Shown: positions 40,343 to 46,460 of the stretch, piece after piece | Layout of the letters: each line of letters starts with the position of its first letter | Position numbering within the stretch: position 1 is the first letter of the stretch | Assembly (NCBI GenBank): GCA_963578655.1 | Contig: CAUZEB010000001.1 | Location: forward strand, 1-50,673 | Length of the DNA: 50,673 nucleotides | Reading direction: 5' to 3' | From: Dehalococcoidia bacterium | GTDB taxonomy: Bacteria > Chloroflexota > Dehalococcoidia > Lucifugimonadales > CAUZEB01 | Translations under genes and position numbers: made by a program | Notes under the pieces: generated by a model | Databases searched by the model: none | What the model was told of the DNA's origin: nothing | What the model saw: only the letters and a program-made list of their open reading frames with translations

Positions 40343-40897
40343 TTATGGCAGCTCAACTCCCGTTAGTATATAAATTATTTGGTCCACCATGGCTTCAGCT
40401 CTAGAACGGAGTTCCTTTTTTGTTAACGACGCGATTGGATGGGCGGTGTATATTATAGGGTAATGAGGATCTCCCCACATTTTTGCCATTGCTTTGGAGG
40501 TTTCTATAAATGAATCTGTACATATCGTGACGGATGGAATACCAGCTTTTTCGACGTGAATGCCGTCGTGCACACTGCACGCACTGCATGAACCTCAGTC
40601 TCCTACGCCGACAATCACATAGTCACACTCCTCGGCCATAGATTGAATCACACTAGGCTCGGCTGGTTTGGAAGCGGAAGGTTTTCGGTGATACTTAACC
40701 TCATTAACGCCGAATCTTTGATGAATAAGATTTTTGATTGCCTCTAACAATTCCTTTGCATTGACCTTACTATCATCGATCAATCCCATACGTTTGTTTG
40801 ATAGAGTCGAGAGTTTTTCTGCACCGGAGAATCCGACTTCTATAGGTTCAGTTACTGGGTTAACCAGTATCATCGAACCGCGAGAACTTGAGATCAT
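40343..40897 (-). CDS. Candidate selenoprotein with a U-G-S-C motif (UGSC-family-like). In-frame UGA at 40595-40597 read as Sec.
   Basis: ORFs 40595-40897 and 40343-40573 share one frame and are separated by a single TGA. Read-through gives '...CDYVIVGVGD-U-GSCSACSVHDGIHVEKAGIPSVTICTD...', 184 codons. The downstream ORF has no SD and only a GTG. A stem-loop starts 5 nt after the UGA. Confidence 0.65.
40560..40589 (-). promoter_or_regulatory. SECIS-like stem-loop downstream of the in-frame UGA
   Basis: mRNA: UGA-GGUUC-AUGC-AG-UG-CGUGCA-GUG-UGCACG-A-CG-GCAU. Perfect 6-bp apical stem (40576-40581 / 40567-40572) with a GUG loop, two further pairs and a 4-bp lower stem (40586-40589 / 40560-40563). 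The apical-loop G lies about 20 nt after the UGA. Confidence 0.45.
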
Positions 40898-41053
40898 GTA
40901 GACATTCCTTTCAATGAAACTTTCTAGTATGCGTTAAAATAATCACGTTGCGGAGAATCCCCAGTCTATCACATGACTAAATTGGTTACATGATGGTCTT
41001 TTGCTCTATCAGAGAGATTACTTGACCACATATAGAGTGACAATACAAAAGAA

Positions 41054-41296
41054 CTATATACTGACTGTTCTAGAAGCACATGCGCAAGATCCACCACCAC
41101 CACAACATCCTCCCCCTCCACTAATAGACGTCGATGGCCCATTACCTGTTGAGGAGAAAGCAGAAAAAACGGAGAATTTTCGTCTTGTTTTACTTCCGCA
41201 ATCGGGACAACTTATGATCATATCCATACTGCTTAAGGAGAGCAACTTCTGAAATTCAGCGTTACAACTTTCACACGCATATTCATAAATAGGCAC
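41054..41296 (-). CDS. FmdB-family zinc-ribbon protein (CxxC...CxxC) with a Gly/Cys-rich tail
   Basis: 'MPIYEYACESCNAEF...SCPDCGS' followed by the tail 'GGGGCCGGGGSCACA', as is typical for this family. Confidence 0.8.
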   Translation of the reverse strand: MPIYEYACESCNAEFQKLLSLSSMDMIISCPDCGSKTRRKFSVFSAFSSTGNGPSTSISGGGGCCGGGGSCACASRTVSI

Positions 41297-41454: not shown

Positions 41455-42657
41455 ATGTCAACTCAATATGATTTCCCGGATGAAAATGGACACTATGGAT
41501 CTTTTGGTGGTAGGTTCGTTCCGGAAACCCTGATGGCAGCTCTGGAAGAATTGGAAAAGGAATACGATAAGATCCGTGAGGACGAATCTTTTCAAGCTGA
41601 ATTAAAACTGCTAGCTAAACATTATGTGGGAAGACCCACGCCTCTGTATTATGCAGAAAACCTTACTCGAGAACTGGGCGGAGCACGAATTTTCTTAAAA
41701 CGAGAAGATCTAGCTCATACTGGGGCTCATAAGATTAATAACGCCCTAGGACAAGGGCTTCTCGCTAGCAGAATGAATAAGAATCGTATCATAGCTGAAA
41801 CTGGAGCTGGACAGCACGGTGTGGCTACAGCCACAATTTGCTCTATGCTAAAACAGGACTGCGTTATATACATGGGTCAAGAAGACATAAGACGTCAATC
41901 CCTCAATGTCTTTAGAATGAAACTTTTAGGAGCTGAGGTTCGGGCGGTGAAATCGGGGAGTCGTACACTTAAAGACGCTATTAATGAATGTATCCGAGAC
42001 TGGGTAACCAATGTGGGGAATACACATTATCTTATAGGGAGTGTCGTTGGGCCCCATCCTTACCCCATGATGGTAAGGGATTTTCAATCAGTGATAGGGA
42101 GAGAAGCCAAAAAACAGCTGATAGAAGCCACGGGTCAGCTCCCAAATTATGTAACTGCTTGCGTAGGAGGTGGTAGTAATTCGATCGGATTATTCTACGA
42201 CTTTATTCAAGATGAGGAAACCAAACTCATAGGGATTGAAGCAGCTGGTAAAGGGCTGGATACGGGACTACATTCATCTACCTTGGTTGCAGGCCGAGTC
42301 GGAGTTCTCCATGGCAGCATGTCATATCTGTTGCAGGATGAAGACGGACAGGTTGAAGAAGCGCATAGTATATCAGCTGGCCTTGATTATCCTGGTGTTG
42401 GTCCTGAGCATAGCTATCTCAAGGACATCGGCAGAGCCAAGTATATTGGCGTTACTGATGCCGAAGCGTTAGATGGGTTTCAGTTGCTTTGTCGTACGGA
42501 AGGCATTATTCCAGCACTAGAACCCGCCCATGTTATACATTATTTATCCAAACTAGCGCCAACTTTATCCAAAGACGAAATTATATTAGTTGGACTCAGT
42601 GGTCGTGGAGATAAAGATATTGATACTGTAGCAAGCGAACTAAATGTGAGCGTGTGA
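41455..42657 (+). CDS. trpB: Tryptophan synthase beta chain
   Basis: 'GRFVPETLM', PLP-Lys motif 'HTGAHKINN', '[10 protein letters not shown]', 'GLSGRGDKD'. No trpA is adjacent. Confidence 0.95.
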
Positions 42658-42725
42658 CCCTTGAAGTACGGATGCTATATATTTGAAAATAATGGAATGC
42701 TGTAAACAAAACTTGGCAACATAAC

Positions 42726-43118
42726 ATGAAGATAGAGATCGTCAAAGTGCCATCTCAGCGATTAATCATTCCGACGATTGTTGCGCAATTTATAGGCGAA
42801 GCTATAGATCATCACGTCGCCGAACGAAATCCTGTCCATGGACAGATGGGTCAGATCAATTTCCTGCATAAACTTGGATATATGGATCCAGCCATGCATG
42901 ATCGCTCATATTCGCGTCACTCAAATGGTTGGACTCAGGATATACTTAGTTGTGAAGGTCTGCAGACTTGTACGTTAGCGACCTACCCTGTAAACATAGG
43001 GCCGAGAATGGATATTTTGAGGCATATTACATCCTCCCGCATATTGCCCAAGGGCGAAGAAATCCTTAAACTTTCTTTGTATGTAATTCCTCTCAATAAA
43101 CCATTAAATGTTGGTTGA
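42726..43118 (+). CDS. Hypothetical protein (weak call)
   Basis: 130-aa ORF, the only long ORF in a 539-bp gap. No recognisable motifs and no clear SD. Confidence 0.25.
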   Translation: MKIEIVKVPSQRLIIPTIVAQFIGEAIDHHVAERNPVHGQMGQINFLHKLGYMDPAMHDRSYSRHSNGWTQDILSCEGLQTCTLATYPVNIGPRMDILRHITSSRILPKGEEILKLSLYVIPLNKPLNVG

Positions 43119-43196
43119 TGTATCTAGTGACCTAAATTTGAATATTTATGAAAACCTTGCTGGTTGGAAACACGATTTTGAGAGTGTAGTACAGGT

Positions 43197-43754
43197 TTGA
43201 GAATCTTAAGTCTTGCTTTTATAGTTGCGATCGTGGCTTTAAGCGTAACAACATATAGTGATAGGTTGGCTTTCGTCGAGGCTAACGGTCGTATAATAGA
43301 GTATCAATCACAGTTGATTGGTCATTACGAAGTCTTGCTGGGAACAGTCCCTGATAGTCCTCTCGTAGGAGTTACGCATCTAACTATTCGCATAAAAGAT
43401 GTTAGGACAGGATTGTTCAGTACCGCTGCAGTTGTGTCGGTTACTGGAACAGGTCCAAATACCGATGCGAACGGATTAGAGCCTGTGAGTGCCAAGCGTG
43501 ATCCTATAGACCGTAGTTACCATGATCTCAGCCTGGTTTTCGATCACCCAGGGCTGTGGACGATCACCGTTTTATTCGAAGACTATGAAGGTGCCCATTC
43601 TGCAAACTTTTTGATAAACGTGCGTAAATCTAACCCTGTATCCGGTATATTTACCCTAATAGGCCTCATGGCTTTCCTTGGAGTATTAGGACTATCAGCG
43701 AGAGTTTATCTTAAAGAACGTAAAAGAGGTAAAAATAAGAAACCATCCCGATGA
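43197..43754 (+). CDS. Membrane-anchored YtkA/FixH-like (Ig-fold) domain protein
   Basis: N-terminal signal or anchor 'ILSLAFIVAIVALSV', a beta-rich domain of about 110 aa ('VGVTHLTIRIKD...HPGLWTITVLFED'), a C-terminal TM and a basic tail 'KERKRGKNKK'. TTG start. Confidence 0.5.
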   Translation: MRILSLAFIVAIVALSVTTYSDRLAFVEANGRIIEYQSQLIGHYEVLLGTVPDSPLVGVTHLTIRIKDVRTGLFSTAAVVSVTGTGPNTDANGLEPVSAKRDPIDRSYHDLSLVFDHPGLWTITVLFEDYEGAHSANFLINVRKSNPVSGIFTLIGLMAFLGVLGLSARVYLKERKRGKNKKPSR

Positions 43755-43864
43755 TCTGACTTCTATGAGGAGATTAAAGTTATGAAGAGTGTTTATATGT
43801 TAACACTGTTACTAATGGTGTTGGCTACGATCGACAGTCCTCTTTCACAGAAAATGCTGAAGGG

Positions 43865-44293
43865 GTGAATATTAATCTTGACATTTCACCAAGGGAAATA
43901 GGGCTCAATACATTTACGATTTCACTTTATGATAGTTCGGGTGCTCCGTTAGAAGGGATATCAGAGATTATAATGAAGAACAGCTATCTTGAGGAAGACT
44001 TAGGAGAAGATTTCATATATCTTAATCGATTTGCTACTGGAATATATACTGCAGACGATATAAATATCGTTCTCGCTGGCCGATGGCAGACAGTTTTATC
44101 CATTAAACGATCGGACGGGTTCGACATTAAGACCGCTTACCGCTATCCGGTGAATATAATGCGAGGCAGTAGTTCAACAATTTCTCCTTCTAATAAAACC
44201 AGTAAAATCTTCTTAGGGGTAGAGATAATTCTCCTAGGCATTCTTTTTATGGGTAATGGGTATAGGTATACCTTTAGGTGGCTGGTATTCTAG
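43865..44293 (+). CDS. YtkA/FixH-like domain protein fragment (probably the middle part of a disrupted larger gene spanning 43782-44684)
   Basis: 'NINLDISPREIGLNTFTISLYDSSGAPL...GIYTA..INIVLAGRWQTVLSIKR' fits the YtkA-like pattern. It lacks its own signal peptide, which is encoded in another frame at 43782-43865 behind a good SD. Confidence 0.5.
   Translation: MNINLDISPREIGLNTFTISLYDSSGAPLEGISEIIMKNSYLEEDLGEDFIYLNRFATGIYTADDINIVLAGRWQTVLSIKRSDGFDIKTAYRYPVNIMRGSSSTISPSNKTSKIFLGVEIILLGILFMGNGYRYTFRWLVF
44249..44262 (+). repeat. Exact 7-bp tandem duplication (atgggta x2) at an ORF junction
   Basis: atgggta at 44249-44255 and 44256-44262, followed by ggtata x2 (44258-44269). Confidence 0.95.
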
Positions 44294-44684
44294 ACGAGGG
44301 ATCTCAGCTTTAGGATCCGGAATTGTATTGTTTATAGCCGGGGCGATTGTGCTAGTTAATTATGGATCGATTGATTCGGGGGTAGAGAAAAATATTAGAA
44401 ATCCCATTTCACCAAATATGGGATCTCTCGAGACAGGGAAAGACTTGTACAAGAAGTATTGTCAGACCTGCCATGGACCGGGCGGTTTAGGTGATGGCCC
44501 ATCTGCTGTTTATTTGGACTCAGCTCCCGCTAATTTGCGGACTCATGTTCCTCTACATCCGGATCGAGGTCTCTTTAGGTTTATTTATAATGGTATTATT
44601 GATACAGAAATGAAAGGTATGAAGAATACTCTTTCCAATGAACATGTTTGGCATATAGTAAATTATATTCAAACCTTTGAGTAA
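44256..44684 (+). CDS. Membrane-anchored c-type cytochrome (class I)
   Basis: Heme motif 'CQTCHG', a distal Met region 'IIDTEMKGM', and an N-terminal TM 'ISALGSGIVLFIAGAIVLV'. Confidence 0.75.
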   Translation: MGIGIPLGGWYSRRGISALGSGIVLFIAGAIVLVNYGSIDSGVEKNIRNPISPNMGSLETGKDLYKKYCQTCHGPGGLGDGPSAVYLDSAPANLRTHVPLHPDRGLFRFIYNGIIDTEMKGMKNTLSNEHVWHIVNYIQTFE

Positions 44685-44723
44685 CTAGATCCAGCATCAA
44701 TAATTATTAGGAGCGCGGGACGT

Positions 44724-46274
44724 GTGGCCTCTATGCTAAAACTTGTAACGTTGTGGTTGGTCCTTTCCTCTTTGGGATTGTGGTTTTCTAATGAGACATC
44801 ATATGCACATGCTATTGGACAAAGGTATGATCTGCCTATCCCACTAAGTTTTTTCCTATTTGGTGGTGCAGTCACAGTTGCACTATCTTTCCTGGTTATA
44901 AGTGCATTCGTTAAACCTCAGCAGAGGCGGCATATTTATCCTCGACATAACGTTCTAACTTACAACTTCATTTCTATCCCATATGTTATGCCAGCTATAT
45001 TAAATATAGTAAAATTGGCCTCTGTTGGAGCGTTTCTGTTAATAATAATATCCGGTCTTACCGGTACTAGTAGGCCTACAGAAAATATATCACCTACCTT
45101 TATTTGGATAATTTGGTGGGTAGGGATGGGGTATGTATCGGCTTTAATTGGAAATGTGTGGTTTTTCATTAACCCTTGGAGAATATTATACGAATGGGTT
45201 GAGGTCTTCTTCGATAATGGATTCGATCACCGTAGCTCAGGCATTGTTCAATATCCTAAGCAGATGGGGATCTGGCCTGCAGTATGCTTTCTCTTGATAT
45301 TCTCTTGGCTTGAGAATGTCTACGTCGGCTCTGTCATCCCTTTCCAGTTGGCCATTCTGATAGTTCTTTATTCAGCTATAACTTGGATAGGAATGTTTTT
45401 ATTTGGTAAACATAAATGGCTACGCTCAGGCGAGGTTTTTACCGTGCTTTTCACTATGTTCTCTAAATTTTCATTTACCGAAGTCAGAGTAACTGATAAT
45501 CAGACATGTAGTTTGTGTGGATTTGATTGTAATCCTTCCGGCAGTCTTTGTGTAGATTGCTATGAATGCTATGATAATGCAAAAGACCATCAAAGAGAAA
45601 TTAATGTACGTCCCTGTGCAGCCGGTCTATTTATACGCCATAGAATAGATTTGTCGATCGTTGCCTTTGTACTCATTGCTTTGGCCAATGTTACGTTTGA
45701 TGGACTGCAGGAGACGTCGGTCTGGTCGTCCTTTCAGAACACGGTCCATCGTATTTTTGTAGGATCTGGTACAGGCTTTAGCGATATTGTCGACACGATT
45801 AGCGTAATATTAGTACCCTTAGTGTTCACCTTAGTTTACCTTGGATTTTCCTGTTCTATTAAACTCTTATCACGAGAAAAGATGCTAGTTTTGGATGTAG
45901 CTAAAACTTTCGTTTTCTCATTGATCCCCATCGCTTTGGCCTACAATATGGCACATTTTATGTCATTACTTGTTGTTCAAGGACAGTTAATTATTCCCTT
46001 AGCATCGGACCCTTTGGGTGTGGGGTGGGATCTGTTAGGATCCGCTGACTATCTCATCAATGTAGACGTTATGAATGTACAGTTTATTTGGTTTATGTCT
46101 GTGGGTGCTATTGTAACAGGTCATGTGGTATCTGTTTATGTTGCTCACGTCATAGCTGTACAGACATTTTTGAAACATTCGACAGCTCTACGCAGTCAAT
46201 ATCCTATGATGGTTCTAATGATATGCTATACCGCTATAAGTTTATGGATAATTGCTCAACCTATTGTTAAGTAA
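44724..46274 (+). CDS. Polytopic membrane protein of unknown function (about 10-12 TM) with a Cys-rich loop
   Basis: 516 aa. Signal-like N-terminus 'LVLSSLGLWFSNETSYA/HAIGQRYDLPIPL'. Six Cys in 21 residues, 'CSLCGFDCNPSGSLCVDCYEC' (45507-45569). GTG start 10 nt after AGGAG. Confidence 0.6.
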   Translation: MASMLKLVTLWLVLSSLGLWFSNETSYAHAIGQRYDLPIPLSFFLFGGAVTVALSFLVISAFVKPQQRRHIYPRHNVLTYNFISIPYVMPAILNIVKLASVGAFLLIIISGLTGTSRPTENISPTFIWIIWWVGMGYVSALIGNVWFFINPWRILYEWVEVFFDNGFDHRSSGIVQYPKQMGIWPAVCFLLIFSWLENVYVGSVIPFQLAILIVLYSAITWIGMFLFGKHKWLRSGEVFTVLFTMFSKFSFTEVRVTDNQTCSLCGFDCNPSGSLCVDCYECYDNAKDHQREINVRPCAAGLFIRHRIDLSIVAFVLIALANVTFDGLQETSVWSSFQNTVHRIFVGSGTGFSDIVDTISVILVPLVFTLVYLGFSCSIKLLSREKMLVLDVAKTFVFSLIPIALAYNMAHFMSLLVVQGQLIIPLASDPLGVGWDLLGSADYLINVDVMNVQFIWFMSVGAIVTGHVVSVYVAHVIAVQTFLKHSTALRSQYPMMVLMICYTAISLWIIAQPIVK

Positions 46275-46460
46275 AGATATTCACAAAAAAAGTAGAACAA
46301 ATGTCTTTACTAGTATGCTTAGCGATGATACACTGTGTTCAAGAATGCGAATCTTTGATTATTCTGCTGCACTGTGTAACGCATGGAATCCCAGGCCTTA
46401 TACAGAATGGTGAGAAATACCAATTTTCTAATAGGATTCTGAACTGATGGAAGGAGTAAC

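What the first reader, a model, noticed from the sequence alone, without database searches (positions are those of the whole stretch)
43197..46274. Uncharacterised envelope cluster: two YtkA/FixH-like domains, a c-type cytochrome and a large membrane protein
Three or four plus-strand genes are separated by gaps of 27 and 39 nt:
- A signal-anchored Ig-like (YtkA/FixH-type) domain protein with a C-terminal TM.
- A second YtkA-like domain preceded by its own SD and signal peptide. It is followed by a TM hairpin and a CxxCH cytochrome c domain, now broken by frameshifts.
- A 516-aa protein with 10-12 TMs.

YtkA/FixH-type domains are otherwise found attached to CopC/CopD copper-handling proteins and to the FixGHIS oxidase-maturation system. 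A periplasmic metal (copper?) capture, reduction or transport module is one reasonable hypothesis. I cannot name a described system with this composition.
Basis: inference. Interest (0 to 1): 0.62.

Follow-up and report, generated by a model that had tools for sequence, protein, structure and literature searches.

The report
Decayed copper-handling cluster with unnamed membrane protein
This marine Dehalococcoidia (SAR202) genome carries a partly degraded copy of a widespread copper-handling gene cluster: a 2.9-kb deletion removed the CopC-CopD importer, but the large, still unnamed membrane protein that defines the cluster is intact.

Summary

**Relatives.** In 85 related loci the cluster has a constant core. 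Between A and C sits a variable module, either a cupredoxin-like lipoprotein or a CopC-CopD-YtkA-cytochrome c fusion.

**The middle gene.** It is not a frameshifted stand-alone gene. Compared with the closest species (C 88% identical), about 2.9 kb is missing. The deletion joins the start and signal peptide of one gene, out of frame, to the last about 285 codons of the CopC-CopD-YtkA-cytochrome c gene. A 7-bp tandem duplication, present in only some strains, breaks it again. The remnant is a pseudogene. Gene A has lost its ancestral start and gene D looks relaxed.

**Protein C.** It is intact and under purifying selection. Its family has about 6,000 clusters at 50% identity, no Pfam model and no PDB fold match. 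Signal-peptide cleavage is predicted to leave His as residue 1, and three membrane His are conserved. One relative is fused to Cu,Zn-superoxide dismutase. Copper handling is the best reading but is untested.

The parts
42726..43118 (+). Gene D: a small His-rich protein with an N-terminal hydrophobic segment and the motif DHH(F/V)AER-P-H. It is the conserved first gene of the cluster and looks relaxed in this genome.
   Evidence: An HMM built from relatives hits it, and D is present in 58 of the loci. Alignment A6 shows D28, H29, H30, P36, H38 and H48 kept. The near-invariant H40, H50 and C-terminal PPxxPP are lost, and the hydrophobic segment is 5 aa shorter than in L012. dN/dS against L012 is 0.68. 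There is no Pfam hit.
43148..43196 (+). Damaged ancestral 5' end of gene A. It has an in-frame TAG at 43187-43189 and a 1-nt insertion just before 43197. The ancestral ATG (L012 position 1566) is TTG at 43178-43180.
   Evidence: DNA alignment and translation against L012.
43197..43754 (+). Gene A: an N-terminal TM helix, a YtkA-like beta-sandwich (about residues 30-143) and a C-terminal TM helix with a basic tail. The only remaining start codon is TTG 43197.
   Evidence: AF2 gives pLDDT 89. The Foldseek top hit is CrdA 9ll2_A at E 7e-6, TMt 0.76. Pfam YtkA matches 35 of 65 family members, though not this one. dN/dS against L012 is 0.22.
43768..43822 (+). Orphan SD (GAGGAG), ATG 43782 and signal peptide of the deleted exported protein whose mature N-terminus is His. 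That gene is 347 aa in L012. Here the frame runs on to TGA 43866-43868.
   Evidence: Window 42600-43822 aligns to L012 976-2209. L012 reads MRKVYMLTLLLMVLTSISGVAYA|HDH....
43817..43822 (.). Junction of the ~2.9-kb deletion (L012 2210-5100 is missing), with GGTNTT microhomology. It joins the two genes out of frame.
   Evidence: blastn and pairwise alignments. The junction is present in DNA contigs of X1-X5 and in RNA contig X10.
43823..44255 (+). Remnant part 1: the linker after the last CopD helix, the YtkA-like domain and the first helix of a TM hairpin. It matches codons ~476-620 of the 761-aa CopC-CopD-YtkA-cytochrome c gene of L012.
   Evidence: It is 87% aa identical to L012. Homologs P0121-P0130 carry Pfam CopD plus cytochrome c. 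Pfam YtkA matches 19 of 34 family members.
44249..44262 (+). 7-bp tandem duplication (ATGGGTA twice) inside the TM hairpin. It shifts the frame by +1 and is polymorphic among strains.
   Evidence: Absent from L001, X4 and X5. Present in X1 and X2.
44256..44684 (+). Remnant part 2: the second TM helix and a class-I cytochrome c domain, with CQTCH at 44460-44474.
   Evidence: Pfam PF13442 at E 6e-13 and PF00034 at E 1e-7. Against the 97% strain there are 8 nonsynonymous changes and 1 synonymous.
44724..46274 (+). Gene C: a 516-aa membrane protein with a signal peptide. His29 is predicted to become residue 1. It has 10 TM helices and a cytoplasmic Cys6 loop (C262-C282, 45507-45569). Conserved residues are E197, D326, H411, D429, H467 and H475. 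The gene is intact.
   Evidence: AF2 gives pLDDT 81 and pTM 0.84. There is no PDB fold or sequence match and no Pfam or NCBIfam hit. The family has 6007 clusters at 50% identity. dN/dS is 0.21-0.29.

Best explanation
**What the locus is (shown).** The locus is a degraded copy of a gene cluster that is conserved across Dehalococcoidia/SAR202. The full form, as in the closest species L012, encodes these genes in order:
- D, a small His-rich membrane protein.
- A, a membrane-anchored YtkA-like beta-sandwich protein.
- An exported, C-terminally anchored protein whose mature N-terminus is His.
- A small cytochrome c.
- A 761-aa CopC-CopD-YtkA-cytochrome c fusion, which is a YcnJ-type copper importer with a haem domain added.
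- C, a 516-aa membrane protein.

**What happened in this lineage (shown).** A ~2.9-kb deletion removed most of the His-start gene, the small cytochrome c and the CopC and CopD parts of the fusion. It joined the leader of the first gene, out of frame, to the YtkA-cytochrome c tail. A later 7-bp duplication broke the tail again in some strains. The middle 'gene' therefore makes no functional product. A has lost its ancestral start, and D has lost several conserved residues. C is intact and constrained.

**How it most likely works (inferred).**
- C is a copper-handling membrane protein.
- Signal peptidase exposes His29 as residue 1 on the outer face.
- That His, with E197, D326, D429 and the membrane residues H411, H467 and H475, forms a periplasm-facing metal site or relay.
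- The site takes copper from, or gives it to, outer-face carriers: A, the cupredoxin-like protein, or CopC/YtkA.
- The direction (import, or supply to outer-face copper enzymes) is not determined.
- C persists here without CopCD, and it occurs with only a cupredoxin partner in many genomes. So C does not depend on CopCD.
For: **Deletion and pseudogene**
- blastn shows two collinear blocks against L012 with 2.9 kb missing between them.
- L012's 761-aa protein matches Pfam CopC (1e-17), CopD (2e-18) and cytochrome c (1e-12).
- No other of the 85 loci shows D-A-YtkA-cytochrome c-C without CopC/CopD, apart from one cut by a contig end.
- The duplication is polymorphic.
- Against the 97% strain, the remnant has 8 nonsynonymous to 1 synonymous changes, and C has 15 to 15. 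Fisher p = 0.056.

**Cluster conservation.** The main arrangements are 29 D-A-cupredoxin-C, 20 D-A-His1 protein-CopC-CopD-YtkA-cytochrome c-C, 11 A-CopCD...-C and 7 A-cupredoxin-C. C is found in at least 548 GTDB species, and the best 80 are all Dehalococcoidia/Chloroflexota.

**Copper link**
- Pfam CopC/CopD in the neighbours.
- Cupredoxin_1 in the alternative partner, E 7e-9.
- The A fold resembles CrdA, P19/FetP and CopC.
- A family member is fused at its C-terminus to Cu,Zn-SOD (PF00080, E 7e-34). It is a continuous ORF on contig L092 beside a cupredoxin gene.

**C anatomy**
- H29 and six other polar residues are at least 90% conserved in 126 diverse representatives.
- Position -1 is Ala in 103 of 112, and position -3 is a small residue in 104 of 112.
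- K+R counts alternate between loops, giving N-out and C-out, consistent with the outer-face SOD fusion.

**Background.** YcnJ is CopC-CopD-YtkA and supports copper-limited growth and oxidase function in B. subtilis (PMC12362106, PMC13344008).
Against: - No experiment exists on any member of the C, A or D families, so copper is inferred from neighbours, folds and one fusion.
- A and the YtkA-like domain in B have no conserved His, Met or Cys that would be obvious copper ligands.
- The window's own A and B domains match no Pfam model.
- I could not read the model's coordinates, so the proposed clustering of conserved residues in C rests on topology alone.
- Pairwise dN/dS of the remnant against L012 (0.17-0.21) still looks constrained. 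That fits a recent deletion but does not prove loss of function.
- The relaxed-selection signal rests on 9 substitutions.
- The rest of the genome could not be searched, so a second intact CopCD copy elsewhere is possible.
Confidence: 0.7

Rival explanations
1. The cluster is an iron-uptake system of the FtrABCD/EfeUOB type rather than a copper system. A would play the part of P19/FetP, and the cupredoxin-like protein that of FtrB or the EfeO Cup domain. C would act as the permease, with its Cys-rich cytoplasmic loop standing in for the FtrD ferredoxin that accepts the electron from Fe(II) oxidation.
For: Foldseek hits of A include FtrA-P19 and FetP (E about 1e-3, TMt about 0.5). The alternative partner is a Cupredoxin_1 protein. 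The SAR202 clade of C has a cytoplasmic Cys6 loop.
Against: - C has no Ftr1 Pfam match, nor any other.
- The Cys loop is absent from 72 of 126 family representatives.
- The other common partner is CopC-CopD, with significant Pfam matches.
- The best fold match of A is the copper protein CrdA.
- A family member is fused to Cu,Zn-SOD.
Confidence: 0.1
2. C is not a metal carrier. It would be a membrane redox protein that moves electrons between the cytoplasm or quinone pool and outer-face carriers (the cytochrome c domain or the cupredoxin), for example to reduce Cu(II) before CopD takes it up. The conserved membrane His would bind haem b, and the Cys6 loop an Fe-S cluster.
For: The variable partner next to C is always a one-electron carrier type, either cupredoxin-like or cytochrome c. 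Three membrane His are conserved. The Cys6 loop is predicted to be cytoplasmic.
Against: - Only three membrane His are conserved, and their depths differ. That is too few for a two-haem wire.
- The Cys loop is missing in most of the family.
- The best-conserved feature is the outer N-terminal His with acidic residues, which looks like a metal site.
- C persists here after the cytochrome c was lost.
- The cupredoxin-like partners match the Cupredoxin_1 model, and I did not check them for a type-1 copper site.
Confidence: 0.13
3. The middle gene is still functional. Either ribosomes shift -1 near the end of the leader ORF (for example on G GGG UGA at 43862-43868), or the pieces are translated separately, for example a membrane-anchored cytochrome c from ATG 44256.
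For: - The leader ORF stops exactly where the next frame has a GTG.
- GGG followed by a stop codon could allow a P-site slip.
- ORF 44256-44684 has an Arg-Arg, TM helix and cytochrome c layout with CQTCH intact.
- The region is represented in metatranscriptome contigs.
Against: - The break is the scar of a 2.9-kb deletion, and homology to L012 in the second frame starts at 43817, upstream of the GGG site.
- There is no X XXY YYZ heptamer in the overlap (sequence).
- The window's strain carries a second break.
- There is no SD before 44256.
- The cytochrome part shows 8 nonsynonymous to 1 synonymous changes against the 97% strain.
- No relative has this split layout.
Confidence: 0.04
4. The frame breaks and the missing 2.9 kb are assembly artefacts of a metagenome-assembled genome.
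For: The window comes from an uncultured marine organism, and MAG contigs can carry collapses and indels.
Against: The same junction is found in separately assembled contigs of runs X1-X5, from different samples and studies, and in an RNA contig. The 7-bp duplication is seen in X1 and X2 and is cleanly absent in X4, X5 and L001. That pattern fits a polymorphism, not an error.
Confidence: 0.02

Closest known systems
Bacillus subtilis YcnJ (CopC-CopD-YtkA) with YcnI, ycnKJI operon (PMC12362106, PMC13344008)
   Same: The ancestral middle gene, seen in L012 and about 37 other loci, has the same CopC-CopD-YtkA order. Beside it lies an exported, C-terminally anchored protein whose mature N-terminus is His, as in YcnI. 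The window's remnant corresponds to the YtkA end of such a protein.
   Different: - The Dehalococcoidia protein adds a TM hairpin and a class-I cytochrome c after YtkA.
- The His-start neighbour does not match DUF1775.
- No YcnK-like repressor is adjacent.
- The cluster carries three further conserved genes (D, A, C) that are absent from ycnKJI.
- In this window CopC and CopD are deleted.
CtaK (YtkA) of B. subtilis, and Helicobacter pylori CrdA
   Same: A is a membrane-tethered single beta-sandwich domain on the outer face. Its family gives sub-threshold to weak Pfam YtkA matches, and its model superposes on CrdA (TMt 0.76).
   Different: A is held by TM helices at both ends rather than by a lipid anchor. 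It has no conserved His or Met ligands. The window's own sequence matches no Pfam model.
FtrABCD / P19-type and EfeUOB iron uptake systems
   Same: The gene logic is alike: an outer-face beta-sandwich metal protein, a cupredoxin-like protein and a polytopic membrane protein with Cys-rich cytoplasmic elements.
   Different: No sequence or profile relation of C to Ftr1 was found. The Cys loop is clade-specific. Many members of the cluster carry CopC-CopD instead of the cupredoxin.
N-terminal-histidine copper sites (CopC, YcnI, PmoB, LPMOs)
   Same: C is predicted to expose His as residue 1 after signal-peptidase cleavage, on the outer face. This is the arrangement that gives the histidine brace in those proteins.
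   Different: Here the His sits 11 residues before the first helix of a 10-TM protein, not on a soluble beta-sandwich. No copper binding has been shown.

Membership tests
Pfam YtkA (PF13115), gene A | Match to the family HMM at or above the gathering score (25.9 bits) | tested here: inconclusive
   The window's A has no hit at E<=1. 35 of 65 homologs hit YtkA, but the best E is 6e-5, just under the cut-off. The fold is a beta-sandwich like CrdA and CopC.
Pfam YtkA (PF13115), domain in the B remnant | Match to the family HMM, and position after a CopD domain as in YcnJ | tested here: met
   The window's own copy has no hit. 19 of 34 orthologous domains hit YtkA, best E 2.4e-9. In L012 and others the domain directly follows Pfam CopD.
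FixH (PF05751) | Match to the family HMM | tested here: not met
   Only 11 of 34 B-domain homologs match, and weakly (best E 0.009). No A-family member is in the top list.
Class I cytochrome c | CxxCH haem motif and a match to PF13442/PF00034 above the gathering score | tested here: met
   CQTCH lies at 44460-44474. PF13442 scores 49.4 bits against a cut-off of 27. However, the gene is cut off from any export signal by two frame breaks.
YcnJ-type CopC-CopD importer | CopC (PF04234) and CopD (PF05425) domains present | tested here: not met
   HMMs built from relatives find no CopC or CopD anywhere in the 50.7-kb window. L012 has both. They lie in the deleted 2.9 kb.
YcnI / DUF1775 (the gene that donated the orphan leader) | Match to the DUF1775 HMM | tested here: not met
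   There is no DUF1775 hit in 12 family members at E<=0.5. Only the layout is alike: leader, His as residue 1, C-terminal TM.
CopD, as a possible distant relative of C | Profile-profile similarity | tested here: not met
   hhalign of the C family against the CopD domains of the same loci gives probability 0.1%.
Ftr1 / any named transporter family, for C | Match to a Pfam or NCBIfam model, or a solved fold | tested here: not met
   - No Pfam or NCBIfam hit for the window's C.
- No consistent Pfam hit over 57 members.
- A PDB profile search finds nothing below E 0.6.
- The best Foldseek PDB hit has E 0.18 and TM 0.1.
Unnamed C family (N-terminal-His polytopic protein) | Signal peptide with an AxA site followed by H-[AG]-x-G-x-x-Y-x-L-P, 10 TM helices, and conserved E197, D326, H411, D429, H467, H475 | tested here: met
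   All of these residues are present in the window's C.

The most novel reading that the evidence does not exclude
C founds a very large, undescribed family of integral-membrane copper proteins, about 6,000 clusters at 50% identity. Its working part would be a signal-peptidase-exposed N-terminal histidine, acting with membrane histidines and outer-face carboxylates. It would be a new kind of bacterial copper permease or membrane metallochaperone. This genome acts as a natural knock-out: C is kept under selection after CopC-CopD and the cytochrome c were lost, which suggests C works on its own.
Probability: 0.35. Interest if true: 0.8.

Novelty: new variant of a known kind. Interest (0 to 1): 0.55.

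Why it matters
How bacteria bring copper in, and how they load outer-face copper enzymes, is still poorly understood. CopD/YcnJ is the main candidate importer, and how it works is unsettled.

This cluster places three unnamed protein families (D, A, C) beside YcnJ-type or cupredoxin-type partners in hundreds of Dehalococcoidia species. These include SAR202, one of the most abundant deep-ocean lineages.

C has a confident predicted fold with no solved counterpart. Its N-terminal His and its fusion to Cu,Zn-SOD make a copper role directly testable.

This window adds a point of evolutionary interest. The importer part was lost while C was kept, which separates the two functions.

The frame breaks themselves are ordinary gene decay.

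Tried and rejected
1. **A -1 ribosomal slip on G GGG UGA (43862-68) joining the leader to the YtkA ORF.** Rejected. Homology to L012 in the second frame starts at 43817, and the site is a deletion scar.
2. **A single missing base in the A4 run at 43851-54 as the cause** (another first-reader note). Rejected for the same reason.
3. **C as a distant CopD.** hhalign finds nothing.
4. **An internal 5+5 TM repeat in C.** hhalign finds nothing.
5. **A solved structure or named family for C.** Nothing was found. The only weak sequence echo is a zinc-ribbon-like match of the Cys loop to eL40, at E 0.6.
6. **The Cys6 loop as the core of C's function.** Rejected, because it is absent from 72 of 126 family representatives.
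7. **DUF1775 membership of the deleted neighbour.** No hits.
8. **Direct homology between A and the YtkA-like domain in B.** Only weak: hhalign E 0.004, probability 9%.
10. **The Lawton et al. 2016 CopC-family paper** was not held. Full-text searches found no description of a CopD-YtkA-cytochrome c fusion or of the C family.


Full report
**1. What is in the sequence**

- A, 43197-43754, 185 aa, TTG start.
- A 28-codon ORF from ATG 43782 (GAGGAG upstream, hydrophobic leader) to TGA 43866-68.
- A 142-aa ORF in another frame, 43865-44293.
- A 142-aa ORF back in the first frame, 44256-44684. It holds a TM helix and a cytochrome c domain. CQTCH is at 44460-74, and PF13442 matches at E 6e-13, above the cut-off.
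- C, 44724-46274, 516 aa.

The gaps of 27 and 39 nt are exact. The window's own A, the middle domain and C match nothing in Pfam or NCBIfam. The neighbours are housekeeping genes: trpB upstream, then recA, recX, a CNNM/CorC protein and a histidine phosphatase downstream.

**2. The cluster in relatives**

C has more than 2,100 homologs in the 90% clusters, and those with names are SAR202 or Chloroflexi. At least 548 GTDB species encode it, and the best 80 are all Dehalococcoidia/Chloroflexota.

I built HMMs from the first loci and scanned 85 loci. The common arrangements are:
- 29 × D-A-cupredoxin-C.
- 20 × D-A-His1 protein-CopC-CopD-YtkA-cytochrome c-C.
- 11 × A-CopC-CopD-YtkA-cytochrome c-C.
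- 7 × A-cupredoxin-C.
- A few rotated or truncated forms.

It is a small protein with an N-terminal hydrophobic segment and an invariant DHH..ER.P.H motif. In the window it is the 130-aa ORF at 42726-43118.

**3. The middle gene is a deletion scar**

- A conceptual read-through of the middle gene finds proteins of 446-521 aa that carry Pfam CopD plus cytochrome c (44% identity over 93% of the query).
- The closest species-level relative is L012, whose C is 88% identical. Its gene order is trpB, D, A, a 347-aa exported protein (leader MRKVYMLTLLLMVL...AYA|HDH, C-terminal TM), a 150-aa cytochrome c, a 761-aa protein and C. The 761-aa protein matches Pfam CopC at 1e-17, CopD at 2e-18 and cytochrome c at 1e-12.
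- At the DNA level, window 42600-43822 aligns with L012 976-2209, and window 43817-46300 aligns with L012 5101-7575. About 2.9 kb is missing.
- The window's SD, ATG 43782 and leader are those of the 347-aa gene. After a GGTNTT microhomology at 43817-22, the sequence continues at about codon 476 of the 761-aa gene, in the wrong frame.
- The second break is a 7-bp tandem duplication, ATGGGTA twice, at 44249-62, inside the TM hairpin.
- No other locus has this layout, except one cut by a contig end.

**4. Are the breaks real, and how old are they?**

- Logan contigs of separate seawater runs carry the deletion junction: X1 to X5, from different samples and studies.
- The 7-bp duplication is present in X1 and X2. 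It is absent in X4, X5 and the 97%-identical Tara contig L001. So the deletion came first, and the duplication is a later polymorphism.
- Short metatranscriptome contigs identical to the window cover A, the junction, both remnant parts and C. The locus is probably transcribed, although DNA carry-over cannot be excluded.
- Against L012 the remnant still shows dN/dS of 0.17-0.21, like A (0.22) and C (0.21), so the loss is recent relative to that split.
- Against the 97% strain the remnant has 8 nonsynonymous and 1 synonymous changes, and C has 15 and 15. Fisher p = 0.056. That is suggestive of relaxed selection on the remnant only.
- Without a leader in frame, the YtkA and haem domains cannot reach the outer face. 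I read the remnant as a pseudogene.

**5. Further decay**

Compared with L012, the 5' end of A has an in-frame TAG (43187-89) and a 1-nt insertion, and the ancestral ATG is now TTG. Only TTG 43197 can start the ORF. The TM helix and domain behind it are intact.

D has lost the near-invariant H40, H50 and the C-terminal PPxxPP. Its hydrophobic segment is shorter, and its dN/dS is 0.68.

**6. The YtkA question**

- A folds with pLDDT 89 into a TM helix, a beta-sandwich and a TM helix.
- Its best PDB matches are H. pylori CrdA (E 7e-6, TMt 0.76), then FtrA-P19, FetP and CopC.
- Pfam YtkA is hit by 35 of 65 A-family members (best 6e-5, just below the cut-off) and by 19 of 34 orthologs of the domain in B (best 2.4e-9). 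FixH is hit only weakly.
- A and the B domain are only marginally alike by profile comparison.
- Neither has a conserved His, Met or Cys.

The ligand chemistry remains open.

**7. Protein C**

- AF2 gives pLDDT 81 and pTM 0.84.
- Foldseek against the PDB finds nothing (best E 0.18, TM 0.1). A profile search of PDB sequences, and Pfam scans of 57 members, also find nothing.
- C is not a detectable CopD relative and has no internal repeat.
- The family has 6007 representatives at E<=1e-3 in the 50%-identity library, and 1402 at E<=1e-30.
- In 126 diverse representatives, H29, E197, D326, H411, D429, H467 and H475 are at least 90% conserved.
- The residue before H29 is Ala in 103 of 112. Position -3 is small in 104 of 112. 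The leader has a median length of 25 aa. So signal peptidase I should leave His as residue 1.
- K+R counts alternate between loops (4.2, 0.5, 4.7, 0.7, 8.0, 1.2, 1.8, 1.8, 3.1). This gives N-out, ten TM helices and C-out.
- The Cys6 loop (C262-C282) is predicted to be cytoplasmic. It is present in only 32 of 126 representatives and absent in 72, so it is a clade feature and not the core.
- One member carries a C-terminal Cu,Zn-SOD domain (PF00080, E 7e-34). It is a continuous ORF next to a Cupredoxin_1 gene. This agrees with the C-out topology and links the family to an outer-face copper enzyme.

**8. Reading**

Shown:
- The cluster architecture.
- The deletion and the duplication.
- The intact state of C.
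- The family sizes, fold predictions and fusions.

Inferred:
- The system handles copper.
- C forms an outer-face metal site or relay from His1, the carboxylates and the membrane His. It exchanges copper with tethered carriers.

The direction of transport is open. Published work holds that some outer-face copper enzymes receive copper that first enters the cytoplasm and is exported again (PMC8689200, PMC13344008). So either direction would fit beside CopCD.

Iron uptake of the Ftr type, and a redox role for C, are the main rivals.

**9. Comparison with the known**

The nearest described system is B. subtilis YcnJ (CopC-CopD-YtkA) with YcnI (PMC12362106, PMC13344008). The Dehalococcoidia form differs in several ways:
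- It adds a haem domain.
- Its His-start neighbour is not DUF1775.
- It carries the three unnamed families D, A and C.

I found no paper that describes the C family or the cytochrome c fusion.

Other agents of this scan noted similar clusters in other genomes. I used those notes only as leads and re-derived the points cited here.

**10. Verdict**

This particular locus is a decaying example, so the frame breaks are ordinary. The persisting C protein belongs to a large, unnamed and structurally unmatched family that deserves experimental work.

Noticed in passing
window 42726-43118: This ORF is a member of a conserved His-rich small membrane protein family (invariant DHH..ER.P.H) that opens the cluster in 58 loci. 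Another first-reader note dismissed it as unconvincing. In this genome it has lost several near-invariant residues.
   Followed up: yes
window 43148-43199: The ancestral 5' end of gene A carries an in-frame TAG and a 1-nt insertion relative to the 88% relative. The ORF can now start only at TTG 43197.
   Followed up: yes
L092:867-2852: A C-family protein is fused at its C-terminus to a Cu,Zn-superoxide dismutase domain plus a TM anchor, with a Cupredoxin_1 gene just upstream. Other members carry C-terminal TPR or YtkA-like extensions (P0136, P0171, P0161).
   Followed up: partly
L012:2154-3197 and ~28 other loci: This is an unnamed family of exported, C-terminally anchored proteins. The mature N-terminus is H-[ED]-x-R..Y.LVVGF.HEPAYEG, and a variable His-rich or cupredoxin-like insert follows. 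There is no DUF1775 match. It always lies between A and CopC.
   Followed up: partly
L012:3270-3722: A separate 150-aa membrane-anchored or lipoprotein cytochrome c gene overlaps the start of the CopC-CopD-YtkA-cytochrome c gene in the closest relative. So the full cluster carries two haem c domains.
   Followed up: no
window 40343-41296 (- strand): A UGSC-family gene (PF24696, E 1.5e-18) and a Zn_ribbon_8 gene lie upstream of trpB. The same trio precedes the cluster in relative L007, so the synteny extends beyond the cluster. In relatives purF/N/M/H follow C, but in the window recA does.
   Followed up: partly
L010, L011: These long-read-derived metagenome contigs show many frame breaks in CopCD and C that look like assembly indels. 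They should not be read as pseudogenes.
   Followed up: no
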